49,238 nucleotides of DNA, from the IMG/VR virus record IMGVR_UViG_2534681703_000016; one strand, 5' to 3'. This DNA comes from a virus. Lineage: Duplodnaviria; Heunggongvirae; Uroviricota; Caudoviricetes. Position 1 is the first letter of the stretch; each line of letters starts with the position of its first letter. This document shows, in pieces, positions 1 to 42,685 of the stretch. The position numbers were made by a program, and so were the translations under genes. Below the pieces are notes generated by a model. It saw only the letters and a program-made list of their open reading frames with translations, ran no database searches and was not told where the DNA came from.

Positions 1-74
1 ACACAGGGAATACTCAGTAAACGCTGACCTACTTCATCTTCGTCCAGCTTTCGTTTCAACTGGGATTCCAGCTC

Positions 75-894
75 GGCACTGTTGCAAATAGTCGGTGGTG
101 ATAAACTTATCATCCTCTTTTGCTGATGGAGCTGCACATGAACCCATTCAAAGGCCGGCATTTTCAGCGTGACATCATTCTGTGGGCCGTACGCTGGTAC
201 TGCAAATACGGCATCAGTTACCGTGAGCTGCAGGAGATGCTGGCTGAACGCGGAGTGAATGTCGATCACTCCACGATTTACCGCTGGGTTCAGCGTTATG
301 CGCCTGAAATGGAAAAACGGCTGCGCTGGTACTGGCGTAACCCTTCCGATCTTTGCCCGTGGCACATGGATGAAACCTACGTGAAGGTCAATGGCCGCTG
401 GGCGTATCTGTACCGGGCCGTCGACAGCCGGGGCCGCACTGTCGATTTTTATCTCTCCTCCCGTCGTAACAGCAAAGCTGCATACCGGTTTCTGGGTAAA
501 ATCCTCAACAACGTGAAGAAGTGGCAGATCCCGCGATTCATCAACACGGATAAAGCGCCCGCCTATGGTCGCGCGCTTGCTCTGCTCAAACGCGAAGGCC
601 GGTGCCCGTCTGACGTTGAACACCGACAGATTAAGTACCGGAACAACGTGATTGAATGCGATCATGGCAAACTGAAACGGATAATCGGCGCCACGCTGGG
701 ATTTAAATCCATGAAGACGGCTTACGCCACCATCAAAGGTATTGAGGTGATGCGTGCACTACGCAAAGGCCAGGCCTCAGCATTTTATTATGGTGATCCC
801 CTGGGCGAAATGCGCCTGGTAAGCAGAGTTTTTGAAATGTAAGGCCTTTGAATAAGACAAAAGGCTGCCTCATCGCTAACTTTGCAACAGTGCC
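75..894 (+). mobile_element. IS26 (IS6 family), complete 820-bp copy
   Basis: 14-bp terminal inverted repeats GGCACTGTTGCAAA at 75-88 and inverted at 881-894; single internal transposase ORF; length exactly 820 bp. Confidence 0.97.
138..842 (+). CDS. tnpA: IS26 transposase Tnp26 (DDE)
   Basis: ORF 120..842; from ATG at 138 the translation MNPFKGRHFQRDIILWAVRWYCKYGISYRELQEMLAERG... matches IS26 Tnp26 as recalled. Confidence 0.95.
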   Translation: MNPFKGRHFQRDIILWAVRWYCKYGISYRELQEMLAERGVNVDHSTIYRWVQRYAPEMEKRLRWYWRNPSDLCPWHMDETYVKVNGRWAYLYRAVDSRGRTVDFYLSSRRNSKAAYRFLGKILNNVKKWQIPRFINTDKAPAYGRALALLKREGRCPSDVEHRQIKYRNNVIECDHGKLKRIIGATLGFKSMKTAYATIKGIEVMRALRKGQASAFYYGDPLGEMRLVSRVFEM

Positions 895-6494: not shown

Positions 6495-8570
6495 TTACCA
6501 GCCTGTAATGTAGTTATCGCCCGCGTAAATATTCAGCCCCATACCATCCTCGGTGACGCGGGAACTGGTCAGACGTAACCCCTCGCCAAGTTCGACGCGC
6601 AGCGAGGCTTCCGCATTCACTTTTTGCTCCTGCGGTTCCTTATCCGTGGCCGTCCACTTCTGATACAGGTCGGTTACAAAACCGCCCAGATACTCCCCGG
6701 CGACACTGCCCAGCGTGGCACCGGCAACCGTACCCAGCGGTCCGGCAAGGCTGCCAACGGCACCGCCGAGCCATGCACCGGCTGTACTGCCAATTGCGCC
6801 TGCTTTTTCATGGGTTGACGCCTGCTCATCCATCAGGACGGGGGCAAGCTGGAGTGCCCCCATTACCGGGCCACCCAGACGTGACAACGCACGCCCCGCG
6901 CCTTTCCCCATCCAGCCCAGCGCCCCGGCACCTTTTGTCACAACCCGACCGATCGCACTGCCTGCAAGTTTGTTTCCGATACCGGAAAACCACCCGCCAG
7001 CGGCACGCCCGGCATCAGCCAGCTTTCCGACCGCTCCCGTAACCAGTTGCCCGGCAGCACTGCCTGCAAGCCTGCTCAGAAGACCGGATTTACCGGGTAA
7101 AGGTAATGGTGCAGGCCGTGCCGTTACCGGTACGCCGGGTGGGGGTAATGCCAGAACAGGGCGTGGTGCAGGTAATGCCAGCGGCTGTGGCCCGGACAGC
7201 AATAACGGCTGGCGGGGTAACAGGGGCGTCATGCCTTTGCCTTTCCGGGTGCGACCACCACGGCCACCGCTTCCGTAACCGCCGAACCCGTGAGGCCAGT
7301 TAGTGACAAACACACGCTGAATGCCGGTGCCCTGCAACAGCGTCTCAGACGTCATGGCATCCGGGACCGGCAGACCTGCCTGCCCACGTTTGCGGTTTCG
7401 CATCCAGCGCCACATACGACGCCCGGTTTTAAACGGATAACTGGCAACCTGCCATGAGGGGTTTGCCACGGCCCAGCCTGCTCTCAGGGCTTTATTGGCA
7501 AGCCAGACAGACACCAGAACAGCAGCCAGTTTTTTCAGGCTGACAATATTCTGGTCAACCCATGCCAGCGCATCTTTACCCGGTTTCAGCCAGCGCCATA
7601 ATTCCTGCGCCGCGATTTTTACCTTTCTGAACGTGGTCAGGAATTTCTGACCAATGTTTTCTGCCAGTGCGTCCAGCTCCCCGGATTTATCCGCCGCATC
7701 GTGCCAGTTAAGCACCCGGCGCATCTCGTTCTTGATTTCTTCAAAGGGGCCGCTGTTTGCCACCTTCGTGCGAAACTCAAGCAGGTTGCCCTCCATCTGG
7801 GCCATCATCCCGTCCCAGGAGTTCATGGCAGCCGCCTGTGCGCCTTCTGACTGCTCCAGCAGGGTCCGGAATACCGTCAGAATGGCTTTCTTGCCCAGCT
7901 TGCCTTTTTCACCCAGCTTACGGATTTTTTTCTCATCCTTACCCGTTGCATCTGCCAGCACCTTGTAAACGTTGATACCGTAACCGGTCAGCAGGTTGGC
8001 GTCCGCCGCCGTGATTTGCTGGCGGGCAAACATCTGTTTGAACTGTAACGAAGCCCCCTGCGCGGTGGGTAAATCCCAGCCATGCATCGCGCCCTGATTC
8101 TGTAGCATGGTGATGAACTGTTTTACCTGGGCGTCAGTCATGCCAAACGCCGTTGATGTGCGGATTTCCTGCAGAACGCCGCCCAGCCCCCAGGTGGTTT
8201 CTTTTGCGTTCTGCTTCGCCCACGCCATCATGGCCTGTGCTCTGGCCTTATCGCCGTGATACAGCGAGTTCATGGCGATAATCTGCTGCTCACGCTGGGC
8301 GGCGGCACCAATAAACAGTTTATTGGCGGTGTAACCCACGCCAGCGATACCCAGCGCCCCGGCTGACAGCATTCGGAATGTACGGGTTGACAGTGAACCC
8401 ATTCTGTCAATGGCACCAGAAACGCGCACAACCTCCATACGCAGGGCACGAAGGGAACTTTGTCCGCTACGGGACAGGGCGTTTATCTGGTTCGAATACT
8501 CGCGGGAACGCCGGGAAAGATTGCCATTAAGATCAATAATGACAGACGCCTTTAAGCGTTTCCCGGTCAT
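6495..8570 (-). CDS. tail tape measure protein
   Basis: 691-aa ORF after tail tube/chaperone genes; long Gly/Ala-rich C-terminal half and Pro-rich linker typical of tape measure proteins. Confidence 0.8.
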
Positions 8571-11030: not shown

Positions 11031-11261
11031 TTACTCCGTTTTTTTCAGCGCAGCGTCGGTATCATCCGCCGTGTTTTCGGTGCTCCCGACTTCAACCACA
11101 TCAGTGTTTTCGGTGCTCCCGACTTCAACCACATCACCGGCTACAAGGCGACGTATCCAGAAACTGTTACGGGGCTTTTCTTCTCCCTCAGGCGCCAGTA
11201 ATTCCATCGTGAGCGGGTCACGGATGGTTTTTCCCTCTGCGGGTTTAATTTTCAGCATCAT
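11031..11261 (-). CDS. small head-tail region protein carrying an in-frame 11-aa tandem duplication
   Basis: 76-aa ORF; perfect 33-bp tandem repeat at 11071-11103 and 11104-11136 encodes VVEVGSTENTD twice. Confidence 0.5.
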   Translation of the reverse strand: MMLKIKPAEGKTIRDPLTMELLAPEGEEKPRNSFWIRRLVAGDVVEVGSTENTDVVEVGSTENTADDTDAALKKTE

Positions 11262-11793
11262 TATCCTTTTCCTGATTCACATTGATATGTGCGGCAAATT
11301 CCGGGGTTTCGGCCGGGAGTTTCCAGGTCTGCCAGTGACGCTCGTAATCATCCAGCGAATCCATGTCCACCACGGACGGCAGCGGGGTAGTGCCACTCAA
11401 CAGAACGCCGTAAAGCACCACGCCGGCATTGATACGGTTGTCGTCACAAAGATTTCTGACCTGCGTCAGTCTCATCCCGGTGGTCTGGCCAAACGTCTGA
11501 CCGTTAACACCGGCAATCAGTCGCTCCACAATCTGATAAATACCGGGCCGGTTTACCGGTTCCCCGTTCAGCAACTCCGCCACGACAAAAAATGCCCAGC
11601 GACTTTCAACTTCCCGACGCGTACGCCCCTCACCACAGCCCATCCATGCCAGAAATACCGATGGCGGGGCCAGAAAGAGACGGTGTACATCCTCGTTAGT
11701 CCATGTGCCGGTAAGGGGTTCCACCTGCCGCAGGGTTGCCCCAAACAACTCACGAACGCGCGCCAGCAGTGCGGCTTCGGTTTCTTCCAGCAT
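11245..11793 (-). CDS. head-tail connector region protein (Mu gp37-like by position)
   Basis: 182-aa ORF, synteny. Confidence 0.5.
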   Translation of the reverse strand: MLEETEAALLARVRELFGATLRQVEPLTGTWTNEDVHRLFLAPPSVFLAWMGCGEGRTRREVESRWAFFVVAELLNGEPVNRPGIYQIVERLIAGVNGQTFGQTTGMRLTQVRNLCDDNRINAGVVLYGVLLSGTTPLPSVVDMDSLDDYERHWQTWKLPAETPEFAAHINVNQEKDNDAEN

Positions 11794-12218
11794 CAGATAA
11801 ACCCCTTCTGTTTTCGTGAAAAAACAGGTGGATCAGACTGAATCTGCACAAGATCCTCTCCCTCCGGAGAGGCTGCCGTCCTGCTTTCCACACCCGGATC
11901 TGTTTTGCCATCACGTACCTGTTCCAGCCAGCGCACCGTGTCCCTGTAAGTTGCGGTGATCTGCTCGGTGGGTTGTGATTCATTCAGATAAAACCAGGCC
12001 ACCACGCAACACTGCCGTTTCAGCAGTGAGGGGACGACGGTAAGCGGCAGAACAAAGCGCGCGGCGAGATAGCCATCAATAAAGGCCGAGGCATCTGCCA
12101 GTGCCTGTTCTGCCACGGCATCATCCGGCTGCCCGTCCGCTGTTTTAGGGCGGGTGAGAATATCCAGCCGCGTACGTGTATAGCGGGCGCACAGGTCATT
12201 TACCGTCGCGTAATTCAT
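11793..12218 (-). CDS. head-tail region protein (Mu gp36-like by position)
   Basis: 141-aa ORF, ATGA coupling to neighbours. Confidence 0.5.
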   Translation of the reverse strand: MNYATVNDLCARYTRTRLDILTRPKTADGQPDDAVAEQALADASAFIDGYLAARFVLPLTVVPSLLKRQCCVVAWFYLNESQPTEQITATYRDTVRWLEQVRDGKTDPGVESRTAASPEGEDLVQIQSDPPVFSRKQKGFI

Positions 12219-12625
12219 GCATCCGCCTCAGCCAGCGCCGCTTTGATTTGCGCACTGCTCACCGGTTCCCCCAGCGCCGCACTGACGGCTTTCACTTTGG
12301 GTTCTCCCCCTGCGGTAAAGTGTTCCGGGTTTGCCTTATCCAGACCGGCAAGGGTCGCACGGATACGGGCGTTCAGATCGCCCACACCCAGAACGTCCAG
12401 CCCCCCAGCCTCAGCGAGCGTTTCTGCTGACGATGCAGATACCACAGACAGCACGCTGTCGGCACGAATGATCGCCAGTTGTTCTTCGGTGACTTCCACG
12501 GTGTTTTCGCCACGTGTAAAGGCGATTCCGGCGCGGCGGTAGACCGGACGAAGGCATTTAATAATCGCCGTGCAAGTGATGCGAGAAGTGTCCAGCCGTT
12601 GTGAATTAAGCGAAGTCCCTGACAT
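12215..12625 (-). CDS. head protein (Mu gp35-like by position)
   Basis: 136-aa ORF following major capsid gene. Confidence 0.5.
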   Translation of the reverse strand: MSGTSLNSQRLDTSRITCTAIIKCLRPVYRRAGIAFTRGENTVEVTEEQLAIIRADSVLSVVSASSAETLAEAGGLDVLGVGDLNARIRATLAGLDKANPEHFTAGGEPKVKAVSAALGEPVSSAQIKAALAEADA

Positions 12626-12691
12626 AACACATGCTCCTCCTTTTCCTTTATATCAGGTTAAAAGGCGGTCTGAACCGCCTTTTAATGACGG

Positions 12692-13609
12692 TTACAGGTA
12701 GTCAGCGACAACCAGTTGCAGCTTGCCCTTCATCTCGTTGGAGACGGTGGTATTGCCATCCGCGAACAGTTCACGGTTAAGCAGTTGCTCTGCGGCTTTT
12801 TCCAGCCCGACCGGTACAACGATATGCGTCGGCTTCAGGCCCAGCTTCTTACCGCCATCACCTTCAAAAGAGCGCATCAGTTGCCAGCCCTTCCAGAGGT
12901 TATCCAGCGTCAGATCGCCTTTTACCGCGACAGCCATCTGCCAGAAGCCGTAACCGGCAGCACGCCGGGCGCTGGCACCAAACAGGAACTCGTTATCCAT
13001 AAAAACGTGGTCGTCATCGATACGGGTACGTGCGACCAGTTCGGGTTTGCGGCGCTCCTGGAAAATCAGCGGTTTGACTGCGCGGGAGCAGTCCAGCAGA
13101 TAGAACGGCAGACCACTGAAGCTGTCCTGTTCAACGATGTTAGAGGTATTCTTTACGTCGCCCGTGCCGTCCACATTCGGATATACCGGATGCTCCTTGT
13201 CGAAGAAGTTCTGACCGTCATAGCAGTGCTGGGTAAAGCCATCTTTCAGAAGTTTAAAAATCAGCTCATCCGGCTGAACTGCCGCAGAACGCCCCATCTC
13301 CTGAAAAATCGGCGCATAAATACCCAGATTGTCATCCTCGAAGTCATCACGGGAAATACCCACGGTGCCTTCAAACGTTTTATTGGCGATGGAGTAGCCA
13401 TGCGCTTGCATTTGCTGAATGGTTCGCTTACCCACCCATTCTTTCAGGGTCGGGAATTTACCCAGCCAGCCATAGGTATTGCTGCGGGTGGAAGAGTTCA
13501 CCGCCATTGCAATTCTGCTGTACTGCGACGGGGCGTCTTCAAGACCGCCCTGAAAATCCTTACGCCAGGAGGTCATCAGGGCTTTAATGGATGCCGGGGT
13601 GACAATCAT
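12692..13609 (-). CDS. T: major capsid protein (Mu T-like)
   Basis: 305-aa ORF downstream of protease/scaffold gene; size and position of Mu major head subunit. Confidence 0.85.
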   Translation of the reverse strand: MIVTPASIKALMTSWRKDFQGGLEDAPSQYSRIAMAVNSSTRSNTYGWLGKFPTLKEWVGKRTIQQMQAHGYSIANKTFEGTVGISRDDFEDDNLGIYAPIFQEMGRSAAVQPDELIFKLLKDGFTQHCYDGQNFFDKEHPVYPNVDGTGDVKNTSNIVEQDSFSGLPFYLLDCSRAVKPLIFQERRKPELVARTRIDDDHVFMDNEFLFGASARRAAGYGFWQMAVAVKGDLTLDNLWKGWQLMRSFEGDGGKKLGLKPTHIVVPVGLEKAAEQLLNRELFADGNTTVSNEMKGKLQLVVADYL

Positions 13610-14691
13610 TTTTCTTGTTCCTGTTTCATTTTCAGATACTCAGCCTCAGTAATGCCGAGCGCCTTCACTGCTGCCTGTTCATCAGCAGACAGCACCGCCA
13701 CCGCCGGTTTTTCCTGTGACGGTTTTTTCGCTGTGGTGGTCTGCATGGCAGATAACGCAGCGATGGGCTGTTTTTCCTCAAGCTGTGCCGACAGTGCCGC
13801 CACGCCAATCTGACCGCCAAGCTGTTCCAGGTAAGTGCGTTCGCTTTTGAAAATGCGGCCTTCCTGTTCCGCCTTGTCCAGAACGGCGCTCAGGCTGGCT
13901 GCGGCGCTTTGTGCAGTCGCCTGTGCCAGTTCATCACGCAGGGCGTTGTAGCTTTCCACCGGGACGTATTTCGTCAGGTCAACGGCGGCTTTCTGTGCCT
14001 TTTCCAGTTCGGCGGATAACGACGCCACTTTTCCGGCATCTGTTTCGAGTGCATCAAGCGCACTCAGGGCCGCACTGGCCTGTTCATCGGTGATGTCTGC
14101 ATTTTCGGGGACCGTCACTCCAAGACGCGCAAGCAGCTTGCGCAGCGTTTCATTCATGGGTTTGTTCTCCTGTTGAAGGATGTCGGGAAGGTCTGCCGCC
14201 AGTGCGGTCAGCTTTTTCATGCCGGTGGCACCGGGGTCATTGGTCAGCGCAGCAAGGCGGATTTGCAGCACCGCACCGGTGGCGGTGTCATACGGAAAAA
14301 CCGCAGAGAGATAACCAAATTCGCCGTCATCGATGCGCTGCTGCGCCGCCGCCGTCCAGCGTGGGTGGATAAATAATCCTTCACCTTCACGCCACTGCAT
14401 TTCATCGGCGTTAAACCAGCCAGCCGCGACGAGTTGTTCCGGGGGTAATCCTTTGTCCTTACGTAGCTGGTTATGCTCGTAATCAATCAGTACGTCCTGG
14501 TTGAGCGCGCGAACGCCTTCAACCAGACGCCCGGCAATCTCACCGTCGATGAACCACCCCTGACCACCTGTCACATCAAACGGGCGACCATCACGGGCAC
14601 TGAAATGACCGGCAGGCAATAGCTGGCACCAGCCGTCATCGTCAATGGACAGCGCACTCAGTGCGGCAATGCCAATCGCGTGTTTTTTCAT
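13606..14691 (-). CDS. I: head protease/scaffold protein (Mu I-like)
   Basis: 361-aa ORF with Ala/Gln-rich coiled C-terminal half (scaffold-like), immediately upstream of capsid gene. Confidence 0.75.
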   Translation of the reverse strand: MKKHAIGIAALSALSIDDDGWCQLLPAGHFSARDGRPFDVTGGQGWFIDGEIAGRLVEGVRALNQDVLIDYEHNQLRKDKGLPPEQLVAAGWFNADEMQWREGEGLFIHPRWTAAAQQRIDDGEFGYLSAVFPYDTATGAVLQIRLAALTNDPGATGMKKLTALAADLPDILQQENKPMNETLRKLLARLGVTVPENADITDEQASAALSALDALETDAGKVASLSAELEKAQKAAVDLTKYVPVESYNALRDELAQATAQSAAASLSAVLDKAEQEGRIFKSERTYLEQLGGQIGVAALSAQLEEKQPIAALSAMQTTTAKKPSQEKPAVAVLSADEQAAVKALGITEAEYLKMKQEQEK

Positions 14692-14887
14692 GTCCTGCTG
14701 CTCATCATGGTTTGTGAGCAGTCAGTTTGCGGGAGGTGCGGGAAAATCTGGGGTTATGCTATTTGAGTACTGGAGAAAGAAAGTGGAAGGAAGATAAAAC
14801 GGGATTCATACACCGTTAAATACCGGTTTAAAAATCCCGTGGCGCGTTTTAAAAAATCTGTGCAGCTGATTTTATGCCTGATTCTGT
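14692..14887. other. 196-bp non-coding gap between G and I homologues at the centre of the prophage (position of the Mu strong gyrase site)
   Basis: no ORF over 16 codons on either strand in an otherwise tightly packed late operon; in Mu the strong gyrase site lies between G and I. Confidence 0.35.
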
Positions 14888-15358
14888 TTATTGCCTCAGA
14901 GCGGCGCTGACGCGTTTTCTGATGGCATCAAAAATTTCCTGTTCCCCGGTCTTATCCAGCCCCATATAAGGACGCGCAGGAACGCCTGCCGGGCGGGGTG
15001 CCATATCGGGTGTACCGCCCCACTGATGAATGGCAGCATAAATTTTTGGCGAACCAATCAGGGCATAATCCTGTCCATAATCGGTGGTAATACTGCGTGC
15101 CAGATCGCCATGCAGGGTAAGAATACTGCCCGGAACAAAACCATGATCCTGACGCCATGCCTGCCACGAATCGCTCCATGCTTCCCAGCCTTTCCCTGTA
15201 TCCGGATCTGCCTGCCGTTCAAATGCCTGTTCCGTGGATGACAGCAGCGCCGCAGACATCACACGGGGAATGGCGCGGTCACGTGTGACGGTTCCCAGTT
15301 CATCCAGCGCAAGCTGAATACGTCGCACATCCACGGCAACGTTCATATCAAGACTCAC
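14888..15358 (-). CDS. G: virion morphogenesis protein (Mu G-like)
   Basis: 156-aa ORF between F-like and I-like genes. Confidence 0.7.
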   Translation of the reverse strand: MSLDMNVAVDVRRIQLALDELGTVTRDRAIPRVMSAALLSSTEQAFERQADPDTGKGWEAWSDSWQAWRQDHGFVPGSILTLHGDLARSITTDYGQDYALIGSPKIYAAIHQWGGTPDMAPRPAGVPARPYMGLDKTGEQEIFDAIRKRVSAALRQ

Positions 15359-16674
15359 TTATTCACCTCCACATGCCCCTCCAGTACGTCAATCATCCCG
15401 TCAGCAATCGCGGCTTCAAGCGACTGTGCAGATACGCGGCTGATACTGACCAGCACATCCGCCCGGTCATTCTGTTTGCTGACAGCCTGCGATGTTCTGA
15501 CCACAACTTTTGCAGTGCCGTCGCGGGTTGCCACAACATACAGCAACTGGTGGTTCTCCCTGTCCCACAATACCGCCTGTGGTTTTGCCATCAGCGACGG
15601 CAGACGCTGTAAATCTTCCGGTTTCAGGGCGGCATCAGCAGTGGTCGCCAGACTTTTCCCGTTCATCACAAGCAGACGGGCTGGCATATTCCCGGTGCGC
15701 TGATGTACGGCTTCAGCCACGGATCCCGTCATAAAACCCAGCGCCCGGATTTCATGACCGGTCTGACGTGATCCTGCCAGGCGTTTAAGCCAGAGGGAAA
15801 AAGCAAGCTGACGCTCCCGGCTGTTATTCAGCGTCTGCACAACCTGCTCACGCAGCTGCGCGTCGTGAATTTCCACCAGTTTTCGAATCAGTGCCTGATC
15901 CGTACCAAATGCTGCCGAACCGGGGTTATATGACCAGCCCACATCCGGCGTCATTTTTACCTGACCGTTGTCAAACGTGGTTGACGATGTGCGGAAAATC
16001 TCGCCGGTGCTTTCATCCGTACCGGCATCCACTTCGCGGGTATTCATGAATGACGCACCATAACTGACCTGTAGCCCCAGTTCTTTCATGCGGGCCGCAG
16101 ACAGCGCCCGGACGCGACAGCGGCAGCGCCAGCCGTTCGGCGGGTAATGCGTCTGCCAGAAAATGTCGTCATACCGGAAAACCACATTGTGCAGCCGCGC
16201 ATGTTCCGGGCGCGTTCTGCTGTCCATAACGGCGACATACTGCCAGTACGGATACAGGTCCGCCGTGTTCATCATCTGCGCATAACGTCCCGCCGCATAT
16301 GCTGTACGGGTGTTGACGTCATAAATGGTTGCCAGACGACGCGGACTGCCCAGCTCAATTTTCTTCGCGTTTCCGTCTGTATCCACGATGATTTGTTTTC
16401 CCCACCATCCGAGTTTTTGCAGCCGGGGGGCCAGTGTGCGGGTAAATTCCTCACGGGTGATACCTTCACTGACAGCCCGCTCCACTTCCTCACGGATTGT
16501 GGTCAGTACATCCATCCGGGTGGCTTTGGCAACGGTAAAGGCGCGGGCGTGCGCGTCTGCCAGTTGTTCGTACCAGTTCCAGGTGATGTTGTAGCCTTTG
16601 GCGCGGAAATACGCGACAGCCTCCTTTGGCGGGAGGCGTGCGGCATACGCCAGATCAATGGTCTGCTGCGGCAT
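15355..16674 (-). CDS. F: head morphogenesis protein (Mu F-like)
   Basis: ORF 15355..16710; internal ATG at 16674 preceded by GGGGG gives a 20-nt overlap with the portal gene. Confidence 0.75.
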   Translation of the reverse strand: MPQQTIDLAYAARLPPKEAVAYFRAKGYNITWNWYEQLADAHARAFTVAKATRMDVLTTIREEVERAVSEGITREEFTRTLAPRLQKLGWWGKQIIVDTDGNAKKIELGSPRRLATIYDVNTRTAYAAGRYAQMMNTADLYPYWQYVAVMDSRTRPEHARLHNVVFRYDDIFWQTHYPPNGWRCRCRVRALSAARMKELGLQVSYGASFMNTREVDAGTDESTGEIFRTSSTTFDNGQVKMTPDVGWSYNPGSAAFGTDQALIRKLVEIHDAQLREQVVQTLNNSRERQLAFSLWLKRLAGSRQTGHEIRALGFMTGSVAEAVHQRTGNMPARLLVMNGKSLATTADAALKPEDLQRLPSLMAKPQAVLWDRENHQLLYVVATRDGTAKVVVRTSQAVSKQNDRADVLVSISRVSAQSLEAAIADGMIDVLEGHVEVNK

Positions 16675-32663: not shown

Positions 32664-32843
32664 GTAATTGCTTTTCGTGTCTTTAATGAATCAAAAGCTG
32701 TTTCCAACAATCTTTCGCGTTTCAAGATGTAACGGCTAAAATCTGTCCTACAGGCTTGCAAGCCCCACTAAATCTAATCCCGCCAAATCCCGAATAATCC
32801 AATGTCCTCCCGGTTTTTTTCGTACTTCAAGTGAATCAATACA
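32664..32843 (-). repeat. Mu-family left end (attL with transposase binding sites)
   Basis: reverse complement of 32799-32843 reads TGTATTGATTCACTTGAAGTACGAAAAAAACCGGGAGGACATTGG, the Mu left-end terminus; divergence from Mu further in fits D108-type. Confidence 0.85.
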
Positions 32844-32856
32844 GTGCTGATTTATG

Positions 32857-33159
32857 TCAGACGGGATTTTGCTTATCAATTATTGAGAACAGAAATTTTC
32901 CTGAATCATCAATACTATACTTAGCAAGTAAAGGTGTTTTCTCATTTATCTGCTTGAGTGCAGGATCAAGGAAAGATCGTTTCAACTCTGCCAAGTTCTT
33001 CTGCTGGGATTCCGGTAAGACGAAACGGTCATTTAACCAAGCATGAGTAGTAACCCATAAGCCTGAAGATTTGAATTGAGCAAGACTTTCATAAAGGCGG
33101 ATCGTCCGGGGATTTCGAAGACTGCCACAATCGCGGAGCGAGTAGGTGGTGAACTGGTT
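32857..33159 (-). pseudogene. C-terminal remnant (about 100 codons) of a second RepE-family replication initiator gene, truncated by IS1
   Basis: minus-strand translation ...FTTYSLRDCGSLRNPRTIRLYESLAQFKSSGLWVTTHAWLNDRFVLPESQQKN... parallels the C-terminus of the intact RepE-like protein at 40742-41464. Confidence 0.7.
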
Positions 33160-33174
33160 GGTAATGACTCCAAC

Positions 33175-33678
33175 TTACTGATAGTGTTTTATGTTCAGAT
33201 AATGCCCGATGACTTTGTCATGCAGCGCCACCGATTTTGAGAACGACAGTGACTTCCTGCCCAGCCTTGCCAGATGCTGCCTCAGATTCTGGTTATGCCG
33301 CTCAATTCGCTGCGTATATCGCTTGCTGATAACGTGCAGTTCTCCCTTCAGGCGGGATTCATAAAGCGGCCAGCCATCCGTCATCCATACCACGACCTCA
33401 AAGGCCGACAGCAGGCCCGGAAGACGCTCCAGCGTGGCCAGAGTACGCTCACCAAAGACGCGTGCCACCACCGTCCTGCACATCCTGCCATAGGCGTAAA
33501 ATAACCAGCGCTGACGTGATTTAGCCCCGACGTAGCCCCACTGTTCGTCCATTTCCGCGCAGACAATGACGTCACTGCCCGGTTGTATGCGTGAGGTTAC
33601 CGACTGCGGTCTGAGTTTTTTAAGTGACGTAAAATCGTGTTGAGGCCAACGCCCATAATGCGGGCGGTTGCCCGGCAT
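33175..33678 (-). CDS. insB: IS1 InsB frame (expressed as InsAB' fusion by -1 frameshift)
   Basis: 167-aa ORF ...[31 protein letters not shown]... matches IS1 InsB with a few substitutions. Confidence 0.88.
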
Positions 33679-33872
33679 CCAACGCCATTCATGGCCATAT
33701 CAATGATTTTCTGGTGCGTACCGGGCTGAGAGGCGGTGTAAGTGAACTGTAGCTGCCATGTTTTACGGCAGTGAGAGCAGAGATAGCGCTGATGTCCGGC
33801 AGTACTTTTACCGTTACGCACCACGCCTTCAGTAGCTGAGCAGGAGGGACAACTGATGGAGATGGAAGCCAC
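33597..33872 (-). CDS. insA: IS1 InsA
   Basis: 91-aa translation [42 protein letters not shown]... matches IS1 InsA as recalled. Confidence 0.92.
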
Positions 33873-33927
33873 TGGAGCACCTCAAAGACACCATCGTACA
33901 CTAAATCAGTAAGTTGGCACCATTATC

Positions 33928-35873
33928 CGGCAGGCGATCTGGATTATCGTCACGCTGTTAAATATGTCGCGGTAGGGATACCCGTTACCGGATACCCCCC
34001 GCACAGATCCCGGCGTGCGCGATTTACGCACCGGGCTCCTGCCTCGGGTGTCTGGCGGTGAACCGCTCCACAGGCCATGGATGAAGAACCCGAACCCTTG
34101 GTAGCCATGCGGCTGCCAGTTTGTTTGCTTTCGTCCAGGTCGTATCATCCTTCTGGCTCCTGCGCCTGAGCGCCCGGCGCCAGAGGTTTGTTACGTGTGT
34201 CCTGAACTTCTGCATGGTGGGGAAGTTGCCCGGTACCGAGTGATAGTTCAGGTATCCCTGAACCACTCTCCTGAGCCATTTTCCCTGTTCGGGGATTGAG
34301 TAATGCCAGCGCCTTCGCAGACCGTCTTTGATGGCTTTCAGAGTTGCCGTCATCCGATCCCGGCGGGTCTTTCGTATCAGCATGAACCTGCCGTTGCGAT
34401 CTTTCCCGCTGATGTGCGTGAACCCGAGGAAGTTGAACGTTTCTGGTTTGCCTTTTCCCCTGATGGCACGGTTTTCGGCAGCGAAGCGGCCGAACTCCAT
34501 CAGACGGGTTTTCTCCGGGTGAACCGTGAGTCCGAACTCCCTCAGTCTGCGCTGCATGGCTATACGGAAGCGCCGGGCATCGTATCGTTTGTCGAACCCG
34601 ATGACGATGTCATCGGCGTATCTGACCATTACCACATTGCCTGTGGCATAGCGACGTCGCCACTGATGCGCCCACAGATCGAAGACGTAGTGGAGGTATA
34701 TGTTTGCCAGCAGCGGTGAGATGACCGCACCCTGTGGGGTGCCTTCCTCCGTTGCTCGCCATTGACCCTCCTCCAACGTCCCGGCTGTGAGCCACTTACG
34801 TATGAGCCTGATTACGCTCCGGTCGCCGATCCGATGCTCTGTGAACCTGATCAGCCATTCGTGGCTCACCCTGTCGAAGAACTGACTGATGTCGGCATCC
34901 AGTACCCAGTTTACGTTAGTGCGTACCAGCCCTGTGGCCAGTGCGTCCAGTGCATCGTGCTGGCTTCGCCCGGGTCTGAACCCGTATGAGAACCCCATAA
35001 AGTCGTTTTCATAGACTGCGTTCAGGATTTTCACCAGCGCATACTGGACGATCTTGTCCTCCAGCGAGGCGATGCCGAGCGGGCGTTGTTTTCCATCCGC
35101 TTTTGGGATGTAGTGACGCCTGCCGGGCTGCGCCCTGTAGCTGCCCTAATGTAGCCTCCGGTGCAGATCTGTTATGTTGTTCTTCATGTTTCCGGCGTAG
35201 TCCATCCACCTGATGCCATCCACTCCGGCGGCCGCTTTCCTGCTCAGGGAGAGGAATGCGGCTTCCAGTGCTTCGACTGTCAGCAGGTGGAACAATGCTG
35301 TAAACCGTTCTTTCTTCCGCTGCTTCGCAGCTTCCCGCACGCGTGACAGCCTCTGTGACATGCTTTCCCGGCTCTGTGTCCGGCGCATGTGTGGCTGTTC
35401 CGCGTTCCCCTTGGCCCCGCTCCTTCGCTCCACTGACTCCGCTCCTTTCGGGTTGTTCGCCTGCTTCGCCGCTACTATGAGCGAGTCCGACTTCTCCTCT
35501 CCGTACATCACCGGCTATGACTCCTCGTCTTCCCGGTGCGGGCCGTCTCCGACACTGGCAGATGGTCAGAGGGGAGATCTCCCGGTTCCCGCGTAGAGAT
35601 CGTATTGACATGCCAGGGTCTCAGACCCCGCCGGGTCCATGTGGCACTCGCAGTATCGCACCCTATGATGTTGCCTTCCGTTAACAGTACAACGTCGGCA
35701 CCCGGTAATTTAATATACATTTCGTGGCTCAATGGCTGGCCTGTCAACACCCCTGTCAACGCTTCGCCCCATACCTCGCGGTATGCAACGCATGACTCGG
35801 GGACCTTGTGGATTGCTGGTCCTTCAATGGTCGGGGACTTTCACCCCTTGATCTCTACCGGTCTCCCGGTGAG
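33928..35873 (-). mobile_element. group II intron (boundaries approximate)
   Basis: RT/maturase ORF flanked by about 0.1 kb of 3' and about 0.4 kb of 5' non-coding structured sequence; abuts IS1 at the 3' side and the umuDC SOS box at the 5' side. Confidence 0.5.
34024..35511 (-). pseudogene. group II intron reverse transcriptase/maturase interrupted by a single in-frame amber codon
   Basis: ORFs 35146..35511 and 34024..35034 are in the same frame, separated by TAG at 35146-35148; read-through gives continuous RT motifs (AAGVDGI..., RPLGI, YADD, FLGF, maturase X domain). Confidence 0.75.
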
Positions 35874-35893
35874 CACTGTATGTATAACCAGTA
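35874..35893 (+). promoter_or_regulatory. LexA (SOS) box upstream of umuD
   Basis: CACTGTATGTATAACCAGTA, 16/20 match to TACTGTATATATATACAGTA with CTG-N10-CAG core, 24 bp upstream of the umuD ATG. Confidence 0.6.
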
Positions 35894-35916
35894 AAATTAG
35901 AGTGTCAGGAGGAAAG

Positions 35917-36348
35917 ATGAAACTACAACTTTTCAGCACCGGGAAAGAACTCCCGCCACAGGCCCATCCATTGTTTGCCGATCTGGCCAGCTGCGGTTTT
36001 CCCAGCCCTGCTGCTGACTATGTCGAGTCCGATCTGGATCTCCATGATTACTGCATACGGCATCCGAGCGCGACGTACTACCTGCGTGCCAGCGGAGACA
36101 GCATGGCCGACGGCAGTCTGTACAATGGCGATCTGCTGGTTGTGGACAGTGCTGAAAAGCCGCGGCACGGCGATATCGTTGTCGCCAGCATGCAGGGGGA
36201 GTTTACGGTGAAACGGCTTCTGCTGACGCCGCGACTGACGCTGCAGCCCATGAATGCCTCCTGGTCGCCGATTTATCCTGATCCCGACGAGCTGGATATC
36301 TTTGGCGTCGTCACGCATATCATCCACCGCCCGAGGGAGATGTACTGA
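35917..36348 (+). CDS. umuD: UmuD-like SOS mutagenesis protein (LexA-type S24 peptidase)
   Basis: ORF 35536..36348; ATG at 35917 after GGAGGAAAG; translation ...[12 protein letters not shown]...[18 protein letters not shown]...GEFTVKRL... closely parallels E. coli UmuD. Confidence 0.9.
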
Positions 36349-37619
36349 TGTTTGCCCTGGCCGATGTGAACAGCTTCTATGCCAGCTGTGAACGTGTTTT
36401 CCGCCCGGATTTGAAAGGAAAGCCGATAGTCGTCCTGAGCAACAACGACGGGAATGTAATCGCTCGCAGTGCCGAGGCGAAGCCCTGGATCAAAATGGAA
36501 ACTCCGTGGTTTCAGATAAAAAACGAAAGATACCCGGAAAAAATATATGCGTTTTCAAGTAACTATGAACTTTATGCCTCGATGTTGGCGCGCGTGATGA
36601 ACAGCCTGGAGGAACTGGCCCCCAGAGTGGAACAGTATTCAATTGATGAGATGTTCCTCGATTTGACCGGCGTGGAGCACTGTATGGAGCTTGAGGACTT
36701 CGGCCGGCAGCTGCGTCAGCACGTGTATGACTGTACCCACCTGACCATTGGCGTGGGCGCCGGACCAACGAAGACCCTCGCAAAATCAGCCCAGTGGGCC
36801 TCAAAAGAGTGGAAACAGTTTCGTGGCGTACTTGCTCTGACCAGGGGAAATCCGCAGAGAACGCGGAAACTGCTTTCACTGCAGCCGGTTGAAGAAATCT
36901 GGGGGGTGGGTAACCGTATTGCACGCAAGCTGAATGTACTGGGCATTAAGACCGCGCTCGATCTCGCCCTGACGAACCCGGCCTTCATCCGCAAAAATTT
37001 TTCTGTGGTCCTTGAGCGAACGGTACGGGAACTGAACGGGGAAAGCTGCCTTTCGCTTGAGGAAGCCCCTCCGACGAAACAGCAAATTGTCTGCAGCCGC
37101 AGTTTTGGCGTGAAGATCACGGAGTACGAGTCACTCCGTCAGGCTATCTGTCAGCACGCAGAGCGGGCCTCTGAAAAACTGCGTAAAGAGCACCAGTATT
37201 GCCGGCATATTTCCGTTTTCATCAAAACGTCTCCGTTCGCCATTAAAGAGCCTTACTACGGCAACGTGGCTACGGAAAAACTTCTTACACCCACTCAGGA
37301 CACCAGGGACATCATTGCAGCCGCTACAACGGCTCTGGAGCGTATCTGGAGGGATGGGCACCGGTATGCCAAAGCCGGAGTTATGCTGAATGACTTCACC
37401 GGCTCCGGCGTTTCGCAGCTGCAGCTGTTCGACGAACGCCCGCCACGCCCTTACAGTGCTGAGCTGATGAAGGTTCTGGACGGGATCAACAACTCAGGGC
37501 TGGGTAAAGTATGGTTTGCGGGGCGGGGTATTGCCCCGGAATGGCAGATGAAACGGGAGATGCTTTCTCCTGCTTATACGACACGATGGTCAGATATTCC
37601 TTCAGCGAAACTGGCGTAA
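36348..37619 (+). CDS. umuC: UmuC-like Y-family DNA polymerase V catalytic subunit
   Basis: 423-aa [44 protein letters not shown]... parallels E. coli UmuC; ATGA-type coupling to umuD. Confidence 0.92.
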
Positions 37620-37624
37620 AACTT

Positions 37625-37702
37625 TGGCGATTTCACCTTGAAATTCTCAGCCTAAACTGCCTAATTACAATAAGTTAGATGTGAAATCGCCATGGCGAAA
37701 TT
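37625..37702. promoter_or_regulatory. parS-like centromere downstream of parB
   Basis: P1-type heptamer ATTTCAC at 37630-37636 and inverted GTGAAAT plus hexamers TCGCCA/TGGCGA at 37681-37698. Confidence 0.5.
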
Positions 37703-38678
37703 ATTGACTCAAATTTCTGTCAAGGACCTCGTTGATAGCCTTGTCCAGTTCATCCTGAATCACTTTTGACATACGGCTAAACTCATAAGTCAGCGTACGC
37801 CCTTTCACACGCTTACGCGCGAACTTGTCCTTTTCTTCAAAAGACCAGAGTGGGGAAACCACTGACTTTTCCTTGGGAGATGGATCTATCAATGCCTGAG
37901 ATGCCTGAGAAATCAGCTTCAGTATACTGGCTTTCTGTTCGTCTTCTGGTCGCTCGCCTTCACTCAAAATTGCATCGAGCTGAGCTGATACAGACTGAAT
38001 GAGTTCTTCAGGCGTTAATCCCTTTTCACTGAGTTTTTCATTAACTTCTAAAAGAAGTTTATAGTCACTAAACGATAGCTCCGACTGAACCGGGAACAGA
38101 GAAATCAAGTCTTGCGGTACGGCCGCCGCCTGCAGCGCCCTGGTAACTTTAGCTTGAGATAACCCCTCCAGTTCAGCAATTTCCTTTTGATTAAATCCGG
38201 ACTCTTTAAGAGCGATCAATCTCAGGCCAATCTCCCGAAGATTATGTTCTTTAGCTGTCTGGATATCTTTAGCCAGTTGGCGAGCTTCATCAGCTGATAA
38301 ATGCTCTTCGGTAACCATTACATCAAGGCCTGTACGGACAAAAATTGCTGAGGCTCGCCGTCTTGAACCATCCAGTATCTCAATCCTTTCACTTTGCTTA
38401 ATACCAATACAGGGAAAGAACTGCTGAAACTTAATCGTCTGGATAATGGATTTCAGGGATTCCCTGGTCAGTGCAAGTTGATCTCTTCCGTTGTTTTCCT
38501 GGTTTACGAAGGTCTTACTTTCAACTTCAGATGCAGGCACCCGAACAAACCTGAACGTTACCTTCCTGCCGGTTTTTAAGGTAAATACCTGGCTTCTACC
38601 GGTGTCCGTCATTTCCGCAATTGACGCCTGGGTATTTAACTGTCTGCCGATGGTTTTTCTTTTCTCATTCGACATCAC
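37701..38678 (-). CDS. parB: ParB partition protein (P1 ParB / F SopB family)
   Basis: 325-aa ORF with ...IEILDGSRRRASAI..., ...EGLSQAKVTRALQAA... HTH and C-terminal dimerisation region; follows parA with ATGA overlap. Confidence 0.85.
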   Translation of the reverse strand: MMSNEKRKTIGRQLNTQASIAEMTDTGRSQVFTLKTGRKVTFRFVRVPASEVESKTFVNQENNGRDQLALTRESLKSIIQTIKFQQFFPCIGIKQSERIEILDGSRRRASAIFVRTGLDVMVTEEHLSADEARQLAKDIQTAKEHNLREIGLRLIALKESGFNQKEIAELEGLSQAKVTRALQAAAVPQDLISLFPVQSELSFSDYKLLLEVNEKLSEKGLTPEELIQSVSAQLDAILSEGERPEDEQKASILKLISQASQALIDPSPKEKSVVSPLWSFEEKDKFARKRVKGRTLTYEFSRMSKVIQDELDKAINEVLDRNLSQ

Positions 38679-39880
38679 ATACCTCCGTTAGTACGAATGA
38701 ACTCGATGCGATCAAAGACTGCCTTCGCAAAGTCTTCCGCTGCTGATTTTGCGCTTTTTAGTGCCTCTGTACTTCCATCATAGGTTGCTGGATTTGCTGA
38801 AATAACTGTGTCAAAAGTCTCCCCACAACGTTCGAAACCATCCAGTCTTGGCAGAACCATGTCTAGCATATCGGCACCGAAAACCTCTTTGGCCTGACTA
38901 TGGCAAATTTTGTGATCAGACTTGTTCAGGATCTTGGACATGAAGCCGACATTACCGATGAGATTGCAGGTGTGCCCATCCATTTCGATGGAATCTATGA
39001 GGGCAGGGAGGCTGGCCACAAACTTCAGGGAAGAATGAAAATCAACCGTCGCCGGTGGAAGAGGGGTCAACATCAGGTCTGCCGCCCCAATGCAGTTTTT
39101 CAGGAACGCATCAAGGTGAGGACCACTATCAAGGAAAATAAAGTCGTAGTCATGCTGGAGCTTGTCGATAATGTTCTCTTTAAGCACCGCATGAATATTT
39201 TTCCCTGGCAGATGTTCTTCACACAATCCCTTCCAGCCTTCAGCAAGGAATGCATCGTCAATGGAAGCGGGGATTACATCAACACCAGGGATAATAGACG
39301 GTACTATAAAATCGGAAAGTAATTCTTCACGAGACACGTTCTGGAGCATGGCCTGAGCAGCCGTATTTTCAACCAAGCCCACTGAATTCTCATGGCTCAG
39401 GAACATTGTCAGAGATGCCTGCGGATCGAAATCGATGGCCAGAATACGCAGGTCTTCGAACAGAAGCTGAGGATGAGCTCGAAAAGCATGTGATAATGAA
39501 GCGGTAGAAACTGTCTTGGAACCACCACCTTTAAGATTACATACAAAAATCGTAAAGGCTTTATCGAAGCGATCCCTGTACTTCGGTACTTTACGATGGT
39601 TATACAGATCGATGACATTCTGAATCGTCATCGCGTATTTCATCGTATTACCAGAAGGTTTCTTTTTAAAAATGTAGCCACCGGCTTCCATTTCGGACAC
39701 AGCATACTCAACACTGCCTTTACTGAGCTTAGGCAGCTTATACAGAGCGGCTTTGCTGTATTCCTGATAGAACTCGGTAAGCTTCAATTCCTCTTTTTGC
39801 TGTCGGATACTTTCGCTCAAAGATGTCAGAAGCTTACCTGCACGTGTAGCGACTTTCCGTAACTGCTCAATATTGTCCAT
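38675..39880 (-). CDS. parA: ParA partition ATPase (type Ia, with N-terminal regulatory domain)
   Basis: 401-aa ORF with deviant Walker A KGGGSKT and long N-terminal extension typical of P1 ParA / F SopA. Confidence 0.88.
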   Translation of the reverse strand: MDNIEQLRKVATRAGKLLTSLSESIRQQKEELKLTEFYQEYSKAALYKLPKLSKGSVEYAVSEMEAGGYIFKKKPSGNTMKYAMTIQNVIDLYNHRKVPKYRDRFDKAFTIFVCNLKGGGSKTVSTASLSHAFRAHPQLLFEDLRILAIDFDPQASLTMFLSHENSVGLVENTAAQAMLQNVSREELLSDFIVPSIIPGVDVIPASIDDAFLAEGWKGLCEEHLPGKNIHAVLKENIIDKLQHDYDFIFLDSGPHLDAFLKNCIGAADLMLTPLPPATVDFHSSLKFVASLPALIDSIEMDGHTCNLIGNVGFMSKILNKSDHKICHSQAKEVFGADMLDMVLPRLDGFERCGETFDTVISANPATYDGSTEALKSAKSAAEDFAKAVFDRIEFIRTNGGM

Positions 39881-39889
39881 TTATCACCT

Positions 39890-39928
39890 CATGACGTTTT
39901 TTGTCATTTTGAACAAAAAGTGTCATGT
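39890..39928. promoter_or_regulatory. palindromic candidate parA operator
   Basis: CATGACGTTTTTTGTCATTTTGAACAAAAAGTGTCATG imperfect palindrome 10 bp upstream of the parA start. Confidence 0.45.
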
Positions 39929-40272
39929 TGCAAGAAAAAAAATCATATTGTTTTGATTTCGCTCTCAACAGAAGGGGGATGAAGCTCGACGGGCGTGCTA
40001 CTAAATCACACTGCAGCAACACGCAGACGCACTTTTGACCATCAACAGCAACTCATACAAAAGGGCTTTGAGAAAGGTATTCAACTTGCAAGACAGGAGA
40101 GTCATTCAGAAGGATTCTGATTTTAGTTACGACCAGTGCAATGCTGAGCCTTATGTATCAGCGCTCGCCGCAGCCATGTAACCGAGCGTAGCGAGCGAAC
40201 TGGCGAGGAAGCGAAGAGGAACCGTTCCGGCAGATAGCTCTTACGCTCAGCACAAGAAGAGTTTTCCATCCT

Positions 40273-40690
40273 CTGTGGGAAACAGGTCAACTTTAATGGA
40301 CGCTCCGGACTATGGGAAACAGGTCAACTTCGCGGACGGCCCGGACTATGGGAAACAGGTCAACTTCACGGGCGGCCGGGAGTGTGGGGAACAGGTCAAC
40401 TTCGCGGACGGCCCGGATTATGGGAAACAGGTCAACTTCGCGGGCGGCCGGGACTGTGGGAAACAGGTCAACTTTGCAGACGGCCCGGACTGTGGGAAAC
40501 AGGTCAACTTCGCGGGCGGCCGGGAGTGTGGGGAACAGGTCAACTTCGCGGACGGCCCGGACTAAGGGAAACAGGTCAGCTTCTCGGACGGCCCGGACTA
40601 TGGGAAACAGGTCAACTTCTCGGACGGTCGGGAGTGTGGGAAACAGGTCAAGTTAGGCAAGCACTATGGGAAACACAGCAAGTTCAGTAT
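40273..40690. repeat. iteron array, 11 copies of a 36-37-bp direct repeat plus one degenerate copy (incA/incC-like copy control)
   Basis: core TGGGAAACAGGTCAAC recurs at 40277, 40313, 40350, 40385, 40422, 40458, 40494, 40530, 40565, 40601, 40637; no unique spacers. Confidence 0.85.
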
Positions 40691-40741
40691 CCCCCCATAT
40701 GTCAGCAACAAACTAAGGGGGGAGGAAATAAAAATTACAGA

Positions 40742-41464: not shown

Positions 41465-41815
41465 TTCAATGCCTATGGGTAAATTTTTACCCACCCATAA
41501 TGACAGTGAAAACAGAAATTGCAAGCTATCGCGATACTTATCCACCGGAAAAATCTGCACTTTATCCACAAGTGGATAATTGAGAACTGAACTTGACCTC
41601 TTTCCCATAGCTTGTTGATGCATATCCCATAGCTTGTTGACACAAAACCCACTGATACGTGATTAATTTCCCATATTATGTTTACCAGTTGCCCATACAG
41701 GCCCCCTCTCAGGCCGCACTGTACGCGGCTTTCAGGCTCCCTAAAAGATGTAAAATAAAGAAAAAGAATAAAAAAGTACTTTATAAAAATATGCCCGTGG
41801 ATAAGTGGATAACCC
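41465..41815. promoter_or_regulatory. replication origin / repA control region
   Basis: DnaA boxes TTATCCACC (41538-41546), TTATCCACA (41562-41570), tandem GTGGATAAGTGGATAAC (41797-41813); AT-rich 41744-41790; 3-4 iteron-like copies inverted relative to the downstream array (41587-41700). Confidence 0.6.
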
Positions 41816-42628: not shown

Positions 42629-42685
42629 CGTCTGACAGACCTCCCCGGCGAGCAGGACGTTCGCCAGCATCATTCTCCTAAGTAC

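What the first reader, a model, noticed from the sequence alone, without database searches (positions are those of the whole stretch)
11071..11136. Perfect in-frame 33-bp tandem duplication inside a small virion-region gene
It duplicates the 11 residues VVEVGSTENTD in a 76-aa protein. It could be recent slipped-strand variation or an assembly artefact; an identical tandem copy is unlikely to be old.
Basis: seen in the sequence. Interest (0 to 1): 0.22.

Follow-up and report, generated by a model that had tools for sequence, protein, structure and literature searches.

The report
Tolerated tandem duplication in Mu gp38
A small tail-region gene of a Mu-like E. coli prophage carries a real, perfect 33-bp in-frame duplication that lengthens a floppy protein tail; many independent isolates share it, it appears harmless, and it is ordinary variation rather than an artefact or a new mechanism.

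Summary
Window 11071..11136 is a perfect 33-bp x 2 head-to-tail repeat inside the 76-aa gene 11031..11261 (-). That gene is the homologue of phage Mu gp38 (Pfam DUF2635) and lies between the tail terminator gp37/K and the sheath gene L.

Mu, D108, SfMu, the Yersinia Mu-like phages and every Mu-like prophage found in 5,426 complete E. coli genomes have one copy.

It is not an assembly artefact. The exact protein occurs on about 120 contigs. Every one of the 20 carrier loci retrieved from public assemblies, 14 draft genomes and one viral contig (15 sources including the window's own assembly), has the identical junction. The carriers sit at eight or more different insertion sites, with complete tail and head modules.

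The duplication is young. The copies are identical, and single-copy siblings differ by 0-5 substitutions in 12-20 kb. It is nonetheless an established marker of a circulating phage lineage.

It starts at the last beta-strand of the folded N-terminal domain and adds 11 residues (DVVEVGSTENT) to a predicted disordered tail. Tail length ranges from 2 to 74 aa across the family, so the change is most likely near-neutral.

The same allele has an extra A in an A-run, which rewrites the C-terminus. Interest is low.

The parts
11104..11136 (-). Repeat copy 1, proximal in the gene. It encodes D43-T53 (DVVEVGSTENT). Its VVE residues form the last predicted beta-strand of the DUF2635 domain.
   Evidence: TRF; sequence; AlphaFold2 strand 44-46 and pLDDT 79 for residues 41-50
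11071..11103 (-). Repeat copy 2, distal in the gene. It encodes D54-T64 and is predicted disordered. This is the 33-bp segment that aligns as an insertion against all single-copy relatives.
   Evidence: Alignments A1 and A2; pLDDT below 50 for residues 53-64
11031..11261 (-). Gene for the 76-aa DUF2635 protein, the homologue of Mu gp38 (Mu_38, annotated 'putative sheath terminator protein' in AF083977).
   Evidence: Pfam PF10948, 77.4 bits against a cut-off of 26.6, residues 5-48; PHROG 208, unknown function; synteny with Mu annotation
11039..11045 (-). A7 run (A6 in Mu and relatives), with a C>T change at 11047. This +1 frameshift replaces the C-terminal PKKRSKSK with LKKTE. The stop codon now lies 6 nt before the sheath ATG instead of overlapping it.
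   Evidence: DNA and protein alignments; present in all 20 retrieved carrier loci
11245..11793 (-). Upstream neighbour: gp37/K tail terminator homologue (182 aa). It overlaps the start of gene 38.
   Evidence: Pfam Phage_Mu_Gp37; Mu annotation; role in the Mu virion from PMC11915804
9525..11024 (-). Downstream neighbour: tail sheath gene L (499 aa).
   Evidence: Pfam Phage_sheath_1, Phage_sheath_1C and domII

Best explanation
This is a genuine, heritable length polymorphism. A single replication or repair error in one E. coli Mu-like phage lineage copied 33 bp (11 codons) head to tail in the gp38 (DUF2635) gene.

The repeat begins at the last beta-strand of the small folded N-terminal domain. 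The first copy therefore completes the fold, and the second copy adds 11 residues to the disordered, low-complexity C-terminal tail, taking it from 17 to 28 aa. Tail length varies freely in this family, so the protein most likely still works, or the change is near-neutral. The allele has been carried by infectious phage into many hosts.

Shown: the repeat is real; it has a single origin with an identical junction, linked to the A7 frameshift; carriers lie at many insertion sites with intact late-gene modules; and the change is placed in a predicted disordered, length-variable region.

Inferred: the molecular event that produced it (template slippage or misalignment), its neutrality, and the function of gp38 itself. 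gp38 is a tail-associated or assembly factor of unknown role.
For: 1. The repeat is exact and in frame.

2. Relatives have a single copy. This holds for 14 phage records including Mu, D108 and SfMu, for all Mu-like prophages in 44 of 5,426 complete E. coli genomes (no dup-bearing match, where a carrier would have ranked first; the 10 rows listed each span 67 bp for a 100-bp query), and for one plasmid record.

3. The exact protein is on 102 contigs, plus 19 more called from the second Met, from NCBI, IMG and ENA. The junction 32-mer is also in an IMG/VR contig.

4. All 20 retrieved carrier loci have dup + A7 with an identical junction.

5. Seven carriers with embedded prophages have seven different host flanks at the right end: flhDC/motAB, asnS/pncB/pepN, a lambdoid prophage, cobUST, rna/rnk, an ABC-transporter operon, and ppnN/queF/syd. 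The window copy adds an eighth site in plasmid-type DNA.

6. Carriers have complete terminase-to-fibre modules and the G segment in both orientations.

7. Carriers are mosaic in the head genes, up to 44 differences per kb, yet identical around gene 38.

8. AlphaFold2 gives pLDDT 87-89 for residues 1-40, a strand at 44-46, and pLDDT below 50 for residues 53-64.

9. Across 167 family members the tail is 2-74 aa long (median 22) and A/K/E/P/T/S-rich. Several members have degenerate tandem repeats in the tail.

10. A second perfect in-frame tandem duplication (45 bp, in the tape-measure gene) segregates in the same lineage.
Against: No direct functional data exist for gp38. It was not resolved in the Mu virion cryo-EM maps (PMC11915804), and it has no solved structure or significant fold match. 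'Tolerated' could therefore also mean 'the gene is dispensable'.

The junction has no microhomology and there is no hairpin, so the classical slippage route is not specifically supported.

The window's own prophage copy is cut by an IS6/IS26-type element after gp48. This particular copy may be defective for reasons unrelated to the duplication.

Distinct insertion sites could in principle arise by transposition without virions, although spread between unrelated strains argues for infection.

Reads were not examined.
Confidence: 0.85

Rival explanations
1. Assembly or sequencing artefact: the true sequence has one copy, and the second copy was created by the assembler or by a read error.
For: The window is a 2013 draft contig, AQEY01000006.1. 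Two metagenome scaffolds of the same phage type show one copy.
Against: An identical junction appears in all 20 retrieved carrier loci, which come from 14 draft-genome assemblies and one IMG/VR contig made by different projects and pipelines (15 sources including the window's own assembly). The exact protein is on about 120 contigs. A 66-bp structure is shorter than ordinary reads, so it is easy to assemble correctly. Collapse to one copy is the likelier assembler error, not expansion.
Confidence: 0.02
2. Gene decay: gp38 is dispensable or already inactive in this lineage, and the duplication plus the A-run frameshift are two steps of pseudogenisation.
For: Two derived lesions sit in a 231-bp gene. 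gp38 is not seen in the virion structure. The window's prophage is itself truncated by an IS element.
Against: The frame stays open to a nearby stop. The conserved N-terminal domain is untouched and scores 77 bits against Pfam. Both changes fall in the variable tail, where family members differ in length and only 44% end in a basic patch. The gene is conserved across 479 representative clusters at E <= 1e-3, though a few hits such as P0029 and P0143 are long repetitive proteins rather than family members. Carriers spread to at least eight sites with intact late-gene modules.
Confidence: 0.08
3. Selected length variant: the longer tail is adaptive, for example by tuning tail assembly or escaping a host defence that recognises this protein. 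Gain and loss of the copy would then act as a fast switch.
For: Within the A7 lineage the two-copy form dominates, about 121 contigs against 2. Haplotypes with dup+/A7, dup-/A7 and dup+/A6 all exist. Tail length is hypervariable across the family.
Against: Only one- and two-copy states are seen. The unit is a multiple of three, so there is no on/off frameshifting. Dominance is equally explained by hitch-hiking in a successful phage lineage. The dup+/A6 contig L012 is a 1.3-kb mosaic metagenome contig that may be chimeric. The single-copy forms sit at the centre of a star phylogeny, so ancestor and revertant cannot be told apart.
Confidence: 0.04
4. Recurrent hotspot: the same duplication arose independently several times.
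For: The dup+/A6 haplotype (P0004, L012) could be an independent origin.
Against: There is no microhomology or hairpin that would fix identical end points. All carriers share the linked flanking haplotype, including E9, T12, E20 and V40. L012 also has this window-type haplotype around the repeat and is mosaic on both sides, which fits recombination or chimerism. None of the roughly 65 other Mu-like sequences checked has the duplication.
Confidence: 0.02

Closest known systems
Bacteriophage Mu gp38 (Mu_38, AAF01116.1) and its D108 and SfMu orthologues
   Same: Same position between K/gp37 and L/sheath. The surrounding 501 bp are about 90% identical in DNA and the protein is 88% identical. Same DUF2635 N-terminal domain and the same acidic GSTENTADDTDA tail.
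   Different: The window allele has the 11-residue duplication and an LKKTE C-terminus in place of PKKRSKSK, and its stop codon no longer overlaps the sheath start.
Pfam DUF2635 / PHROG 208 family
   Same: Conserved domain of about 48 residues (W35, G10, D15-P16, R37-R38, G42, V44), followed by a variable low-complexity tail.
   Different: It is the only cluster found with a perfect tandem copy. Other long-tailed members (P0012, P0016, P0019, P0100, P0106) have diverged or degenerate repeats.
In-frame tandem-duplication length polymorphisms in phage tail genes, for example tape-measure proteins
   Same: A second perfect in-frame tandem duplication (45 bp, [15 protein letters not shown] x2) segregates in the tape-measure gene of the same phage lineage. 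Same class of event: a perfect in-frame copy tolerated in a repetitive or flexible region.
   Different: From general knowledge, tape-measure length has a known read-out in tail length. No phenotype is known for gp38 tail length.
Sheath/tube terminator proteins of contractile tails (T4 gp15/gp3, P2 gpS/gpR)
   Same: The only link is the annotation 'putative sheath terminator' on Mu_38 in AF083977 and the gene's position next to the sheath gene.
   Different: In the Mu cryo-EM structure gp37 alone caps both tube and sheath, and gp38 was not found (PMC11915804). There is no sequence or fold match to any solved structure.

Membership tests
DUF2635 (PF10948) / Mu gp38 orthologues | Match to the family HMM above the curated threshold | tested here: met
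   77.4 bits against a cut-off of 26.6, E = 6.7e-22, residues 5-48
DUF2635 (PF10948) / Mu gp38 orthologues | Gene lies between the gp37/K tail terminator and the tail sheath gene of a Mu-type late operon | tested here: met
   Pfam on the neighbouring genes; identical layout in the Mu annotation and in all carrier loci
DUF2635 (PF10948) / Mu gp38 orthologues | Conserved residues of the N-terminal domain are retained | tested here: met
   In a 103-sequence alignment W35 is invariant, and G10, D15, P16, L22, G26, R37, R38, G42 and V44 are at least 90% conserved. All are present in the window protein.
Mu-like transposable prophage (Muvirus-type) | Mu-type terminal sequence and near-random insertion sites | tested here: met
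   Exact 23-mer of the Mu left end at 32821..32843. Relatives carrying the same allele have eight different flanks.
Product of classical slipped-strand mispairing | Head-to-tail direct repeat with no spacer | tested here: met
   TRF 2.0 copies, 100% matches
Product of classical slipped-strand mispairing | Short direct repeat (microhomology) at the duplication end points in the progenitor | tested here: not met
   The period-33 identity is exactly 66 bp. The flanks CCGG/ACAC and TGAT/GGCG do not match.
Product of classical slipped-strand mispairing | Stabilising secondary structure in the progenitor strand | tested here: not met
   DNA folds of the single-copy sequence give z = -0.06 and 0.00 against shuffles
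Contingency locus / phase-variable repeat tract | Many copy-number alleles, with unit length or position such that copy-number changes switch expression | tested here: not met
   Only one- and two-copy alleles were found. The unit is 33 bp, a multiple of three, so the frame is kept.
Tail sheath terminator (functional class) | Located at the head-proximal end of the sheath in the virion | not testable with these tools
   gp38 is not resolved in the Mu cryo-EM maps (PMC11915804). There are no PDB sequence or fold matches.

The most novel reading that the evidence does not exclude
The disordered tail of gp38 could be a tunable spacer whose length is under diversifying selection, for instance to adjust sheath or terminator assembly, or to escape a host defence that senses this late protein. 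The 33-bp copy would then be gained and lost quickly as a reversible length switch. The coexistence of dup+/A7, dup-/A7 and dup+/A6 haplotypes and the 2-74 aa tail range in the family do not exclude this reading.
Probability: 0.04. Interest if true: 0.45.

Novelty: new member of a known kind. Interest (0 to 1): 0.1.

Why it matters
It matters little biologically. It is an ordinary in-frame length polymorphism in the flexible tail of a small phage protein of unknown function.

It has three practical uses:
1. The junction, together with the linked A7 run, is a clean marker for one circulating lineage of Mu-like E. coli phages.
2. The natural allele shows that residues after about position 50 of gp38 tolerate an 11-residue insertion and loss of the basic C-terminus. 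That is useful for anyone tagging or dissecting this uncharacterised protein.
3. It is a worked example of separating a real tandem duplication from an assembly artefact without reads, by using independent assemblies and independent transposition sites.

Tried and rejected
- Junction 32-mer scans found nothing in genome contigs (species representatives) or metagenome contigs. The only hit was in viral contigs.
- A repressor look-up to reach left-end flanks was uninformative, because that protein is in 4,190 blocks and none of the contigs shown was a known carrier.
- A gp43 look-up found only the window's own contig and a few others, but it did reveal the identity of the window.
- The PDB sequence search gave no hit at E <= 10. 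Foldseek against the PDB gave a best E of about 1, including the B. subtilis prophage protein YqbF at E = 1.5, which is not significant.
- The literature holds no paper containing 'DUF2635'. The Mu cryo-EM paper mentions gp38 only as unresolved.
- DNA folding of the progenitor showed no hairpin. The promoter/terminator scan found nothing created by the junction.
- I tried to polarise single-copy against two-copy (ancestor or revertant) with 20 kb of sequence. The phylogeny is star-like and the question stays undecided.
- I considered the dup+/A6 haplotype (L012) as evidence for the order of events. I rejected it as unsafe because the 1.3-kb metagenome contig is mosaic on both sides of the repeat.

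Full report
**Observation.** Tandem Repeats Finder reports one array at window 11071..11136 with period 33, 2.0 copies, 100% matches and no indels. The sequence shows the same. The bases on either side break the period, so the repeat is exactly 66 bp. By my own arithmetic, a perfect 33-bp tandem copy is expected about 1e-15 times by chance in 49 kb. The repeat lies in frame in the minus-strand ORF 11031..11261, which encodes 76 aa. The duplicated peptide is DVVEVGSTENT (residues 43-53 and 54-64).

**What the gene is.** The protein matches Pfam DUF2635 at 77.4 bits against a cut-off of 26.6, over residues 5-48. Its neighbours are Phage_Mu_Gp37 upstream and a tail sheath gene downstream, with Mu Gp36 and the FluMu N-terminal domain protein further upstream. 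The surrounding 501 bp are about 90% identical to phage Mu, D108, SfMu and Yersinia Mu-like phages. In the Mu record the orthologue is Mu_38, annotated 'putative sheath terminator protein', between K (tail terminator) and L (sheath). PHROGs files it in family 208, function unknown. No solved structure matches by sequence. A 2025 cryo-EM study of the whole Mu virion lists gp38 as 'probably structural' but could not resolve it, and found that gp37 alone caps the tube and sheath (PMC11915804). No paper in the library contains 'DUF2635'.

**Comparison with relatives.** Mu, two E. coli prophages and a Yersinia phage align with a clean 33-bp gap against the window. All 14 phage records and all Mu-like prophages found in 44 of 5,426 complete E. 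coli genomes (51 places) are single copy. A carrier would have ranked first in those searches, and none did. The one plasmid hit is also single copy. The A-run at 11039..11045 has seven A (gene strand) instead of six, and there is a C>T change at 11047. The C-terminus PKKRSKSK* becomes LKKTE*, and the stop codon now lies 6 nt before the sheath ATG instead of overlapping it.

**Artefact or real.** An exact-sequence look-up finds the 76-aa protein on 102 contigs, plus 19 more where it is called from the second Met. The sources are NCBI, IMG and ENA, and all are E. coli. The junction 32-mer is also in an IMG/VR contig. All 20 carrier loci I retrieved from public assemblies, drawn from 14 draft-genome assemblies and one IMG/VR contig (15 sources including the window's own assembly), contain two perfect copies and the A7 run. 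The window itself is the whole of contig AQEY01000006.1 of GCA_000355295.1. A 66-bp structure is shorter than a sequencing read, and the same junction recurs across projects and assemblers, so an assembly artefact is very unlikely. Reads could not be examined here.

**How old it is, and whether it is tolerated.** Mu-type phages integrate by near-random transposition, so each new lysogen has a new insertion site. I looked up gp48, which lies near enough that a 10-kb flank contains both gene 38 and the prophage right end.
- Seven carriers with embedded prophages have seven different host neighbourhoods: flhDC-motAB, asnS-pncB-pepN, a lambdoid prophage, cobUST, rna-rnk, an ABC-transporter operon, and ppnN-queF-syd.
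- At DNA level, five share one right-end sequence (...GAGCCGGCTCA) and two have the Mu-type end (...CGCCGCTTCA). The flanking sequence is unrelated in every case.
- In the window the Mu left end is at 32843, and the flank is 100% identical to E. coli plasmids.

That makes eight independent integrations of a phage that already carried the duplication and the A7 run.

Carriers have complete terminase-to-fibre modules and the invertible G segment in both orientations. Two carriers (L029, L030) are strongly mosaic in the head genes, with up to 44 differences per kb, but are identical around gene 38. The allele has therefore passed through recombination as well.

The duplication is still young on the substitution clock. 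The two copies are identical everywhere. Two metagenome scaffolds with a single copy on the same A7 background (L011/L041 and L042) differ from core carriers by only 0-5 substitutions in 12-20 kb. The phylogeny is star-like, with differences mostly in private recombination patches, so I cannot say whether the single-copy form is the ancestor or a revertant. A third haplotype, duplication with the Mu-type C-terminus, exists only on a 1.3-kb metagenome contig that is mosaic on both sides. It may be a recombinant or a chimera.

**Where the duplication falls in the protein.** An exhaustive profile-free search finds 479 representative clusters at E <= 1e-3. Matches almost always end near query residue 46-55. 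In 167 members with the domain end defined, the tail after the domain is 2-74 aa long (median 22) and rich in A, K, E, P, T and S. Only 44% of tails of 12 aa or more end in a basic patch, and several members carry degenerate tandem repeats in the tail. In a 103-sequence alignment the conserved residues are all N-terminal of position 45. AlphaFold2 on that alignment gives a confident small domain: pLDDT 87-89 for residues 1-40, strands at 2-7 and 27-30, a helix at 33-41 and a strand at 44-46. Residues 53-64 have pLDDT below 50. The first copy thus supplies the last strand of the fold, and the second copy extends the disordered tail from 17 to 28 residues, well inside the family range. Foldseek against the PDB found nothing significant.

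**Mechanism of origin.** The event is a blunt head-to-tail copy. The progenitor has no microhomology at the end points and no hairpin beyond shuffled controls (z about 0). The junction creates no promoter-like or terminator-like site. Some form of template misalignment during replication or repair is the default explanation, but the classical signature of slipped-strand mispairing is absent, so this step is inference. The same phage lineage carries a second perfect in-frame tandem duplication, 45 bp in the tape-measure gene, giving 706 aa instead of 691 aa ([15 protein letters not shown] x2). Such events recur in these tail genes.

**Verdict.** The feature is a real, single-origin, in-frame tandem duplication that marks one circulating lineage of Mu-like E. 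coli phages. It lies in a length-tolerant disordered tail and is most likely near-neutral. The main rival is that gp38 is dispensable and decaying, at about 8%. Artefact, adaptive switch and recurrent hotspot are each at or below 4%. This is ordinary variation, a new allele of a known family, and of low interest.

Noticed in passing
window 11039..11047: The same gene has an A7 run where Mu and all other E. coli alleles have A6, plus a C>T change. The C-terminus changes from PKKRSKSK to LKKTE, and the stop/start overlap with the sheath gene is lost. This change is linked to the duplication in all retrieved carriers. A +1 slip on the A7 run would restore the Mu-type frame; that was not tested.
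   Followed up: partly
window 1..850: An IS6/IS26-type transposase gene (120..842 +; Pfam DDE_Tnp_IS240) follows gp48, and the contig ends there. The tail-fibre genes, G segment, gin and the right end of the prophage are absent from the window, so this prophage copy is interrupted or truncated.
   Followed up: partly
window 32821..49238: The Mu-type left end is at 32843. Everything beyond it is plasmid-type DNA, 100% identical to several E. coli plasmids: IS1 transposase (33175..33678), ParA (38675..39880), a Rep3-family initiator (40742..41623), and umuD and group II intron ltrA by annotation of the hits. This Mu-like prophage therefore sits in a plasmid backbone.
   Followed up: partly
window 40276..40651: A 36-bp x 10.4 tandem array (86% matches) lies immediately next to the Rep3 initiator gene, and a 22-bp x 2.2 repeat lies at 41604..41651 on its other side. 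They may be iterons or incompatibility repeats. The array is widespread in Klebsiella and E. coli plasmids.
   Followed up: partly
window 45965..46049: A 40-bp x 2.1 tandem repeat with 97% matches lies in the plasmid part of the window.
   Followed up: no
L026 13860..13949 (corresponds to about window 7121..7165, single copy there): Some carriers (L026, L032, L038) have a 706-aa tape-measure protein instead of 691 aa. The cause is another perfect in-frame tandem duplication, 45 bp ([15 protein letters not shown] x2), with no other substitution in the gene.
   Followed up: yes
L031-L037, about 12000..15850: Carriers have two different right-end modules: com/mom with the Mu-type end ...CGCCGCTTCA, or a 148-aa ORF with the end ...GAGCCGGCTCA. 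The invertible G segment is present in both orientations (fibre 500 aa + 175 aa, or 488 aa + 177 aa).
   Followed up: partly
L040 9277..10010: A metagenome scaffold of the same phage type has an internal deletion that joins a truncated major-head gene (gpT) to the C-terminal part of the gp47 baseplate gene. This removes gene 38 and most of the tail genes.
   Followed up: no
L012 (1,263-bp metagenome contig): This is the only sequence that combines the duplication with the Mu-type C-terminus. It is window-like around the repeat and E148-like on both sides, so it is either a natural recombinant or a chimeric assembly.
   Followed up: partly
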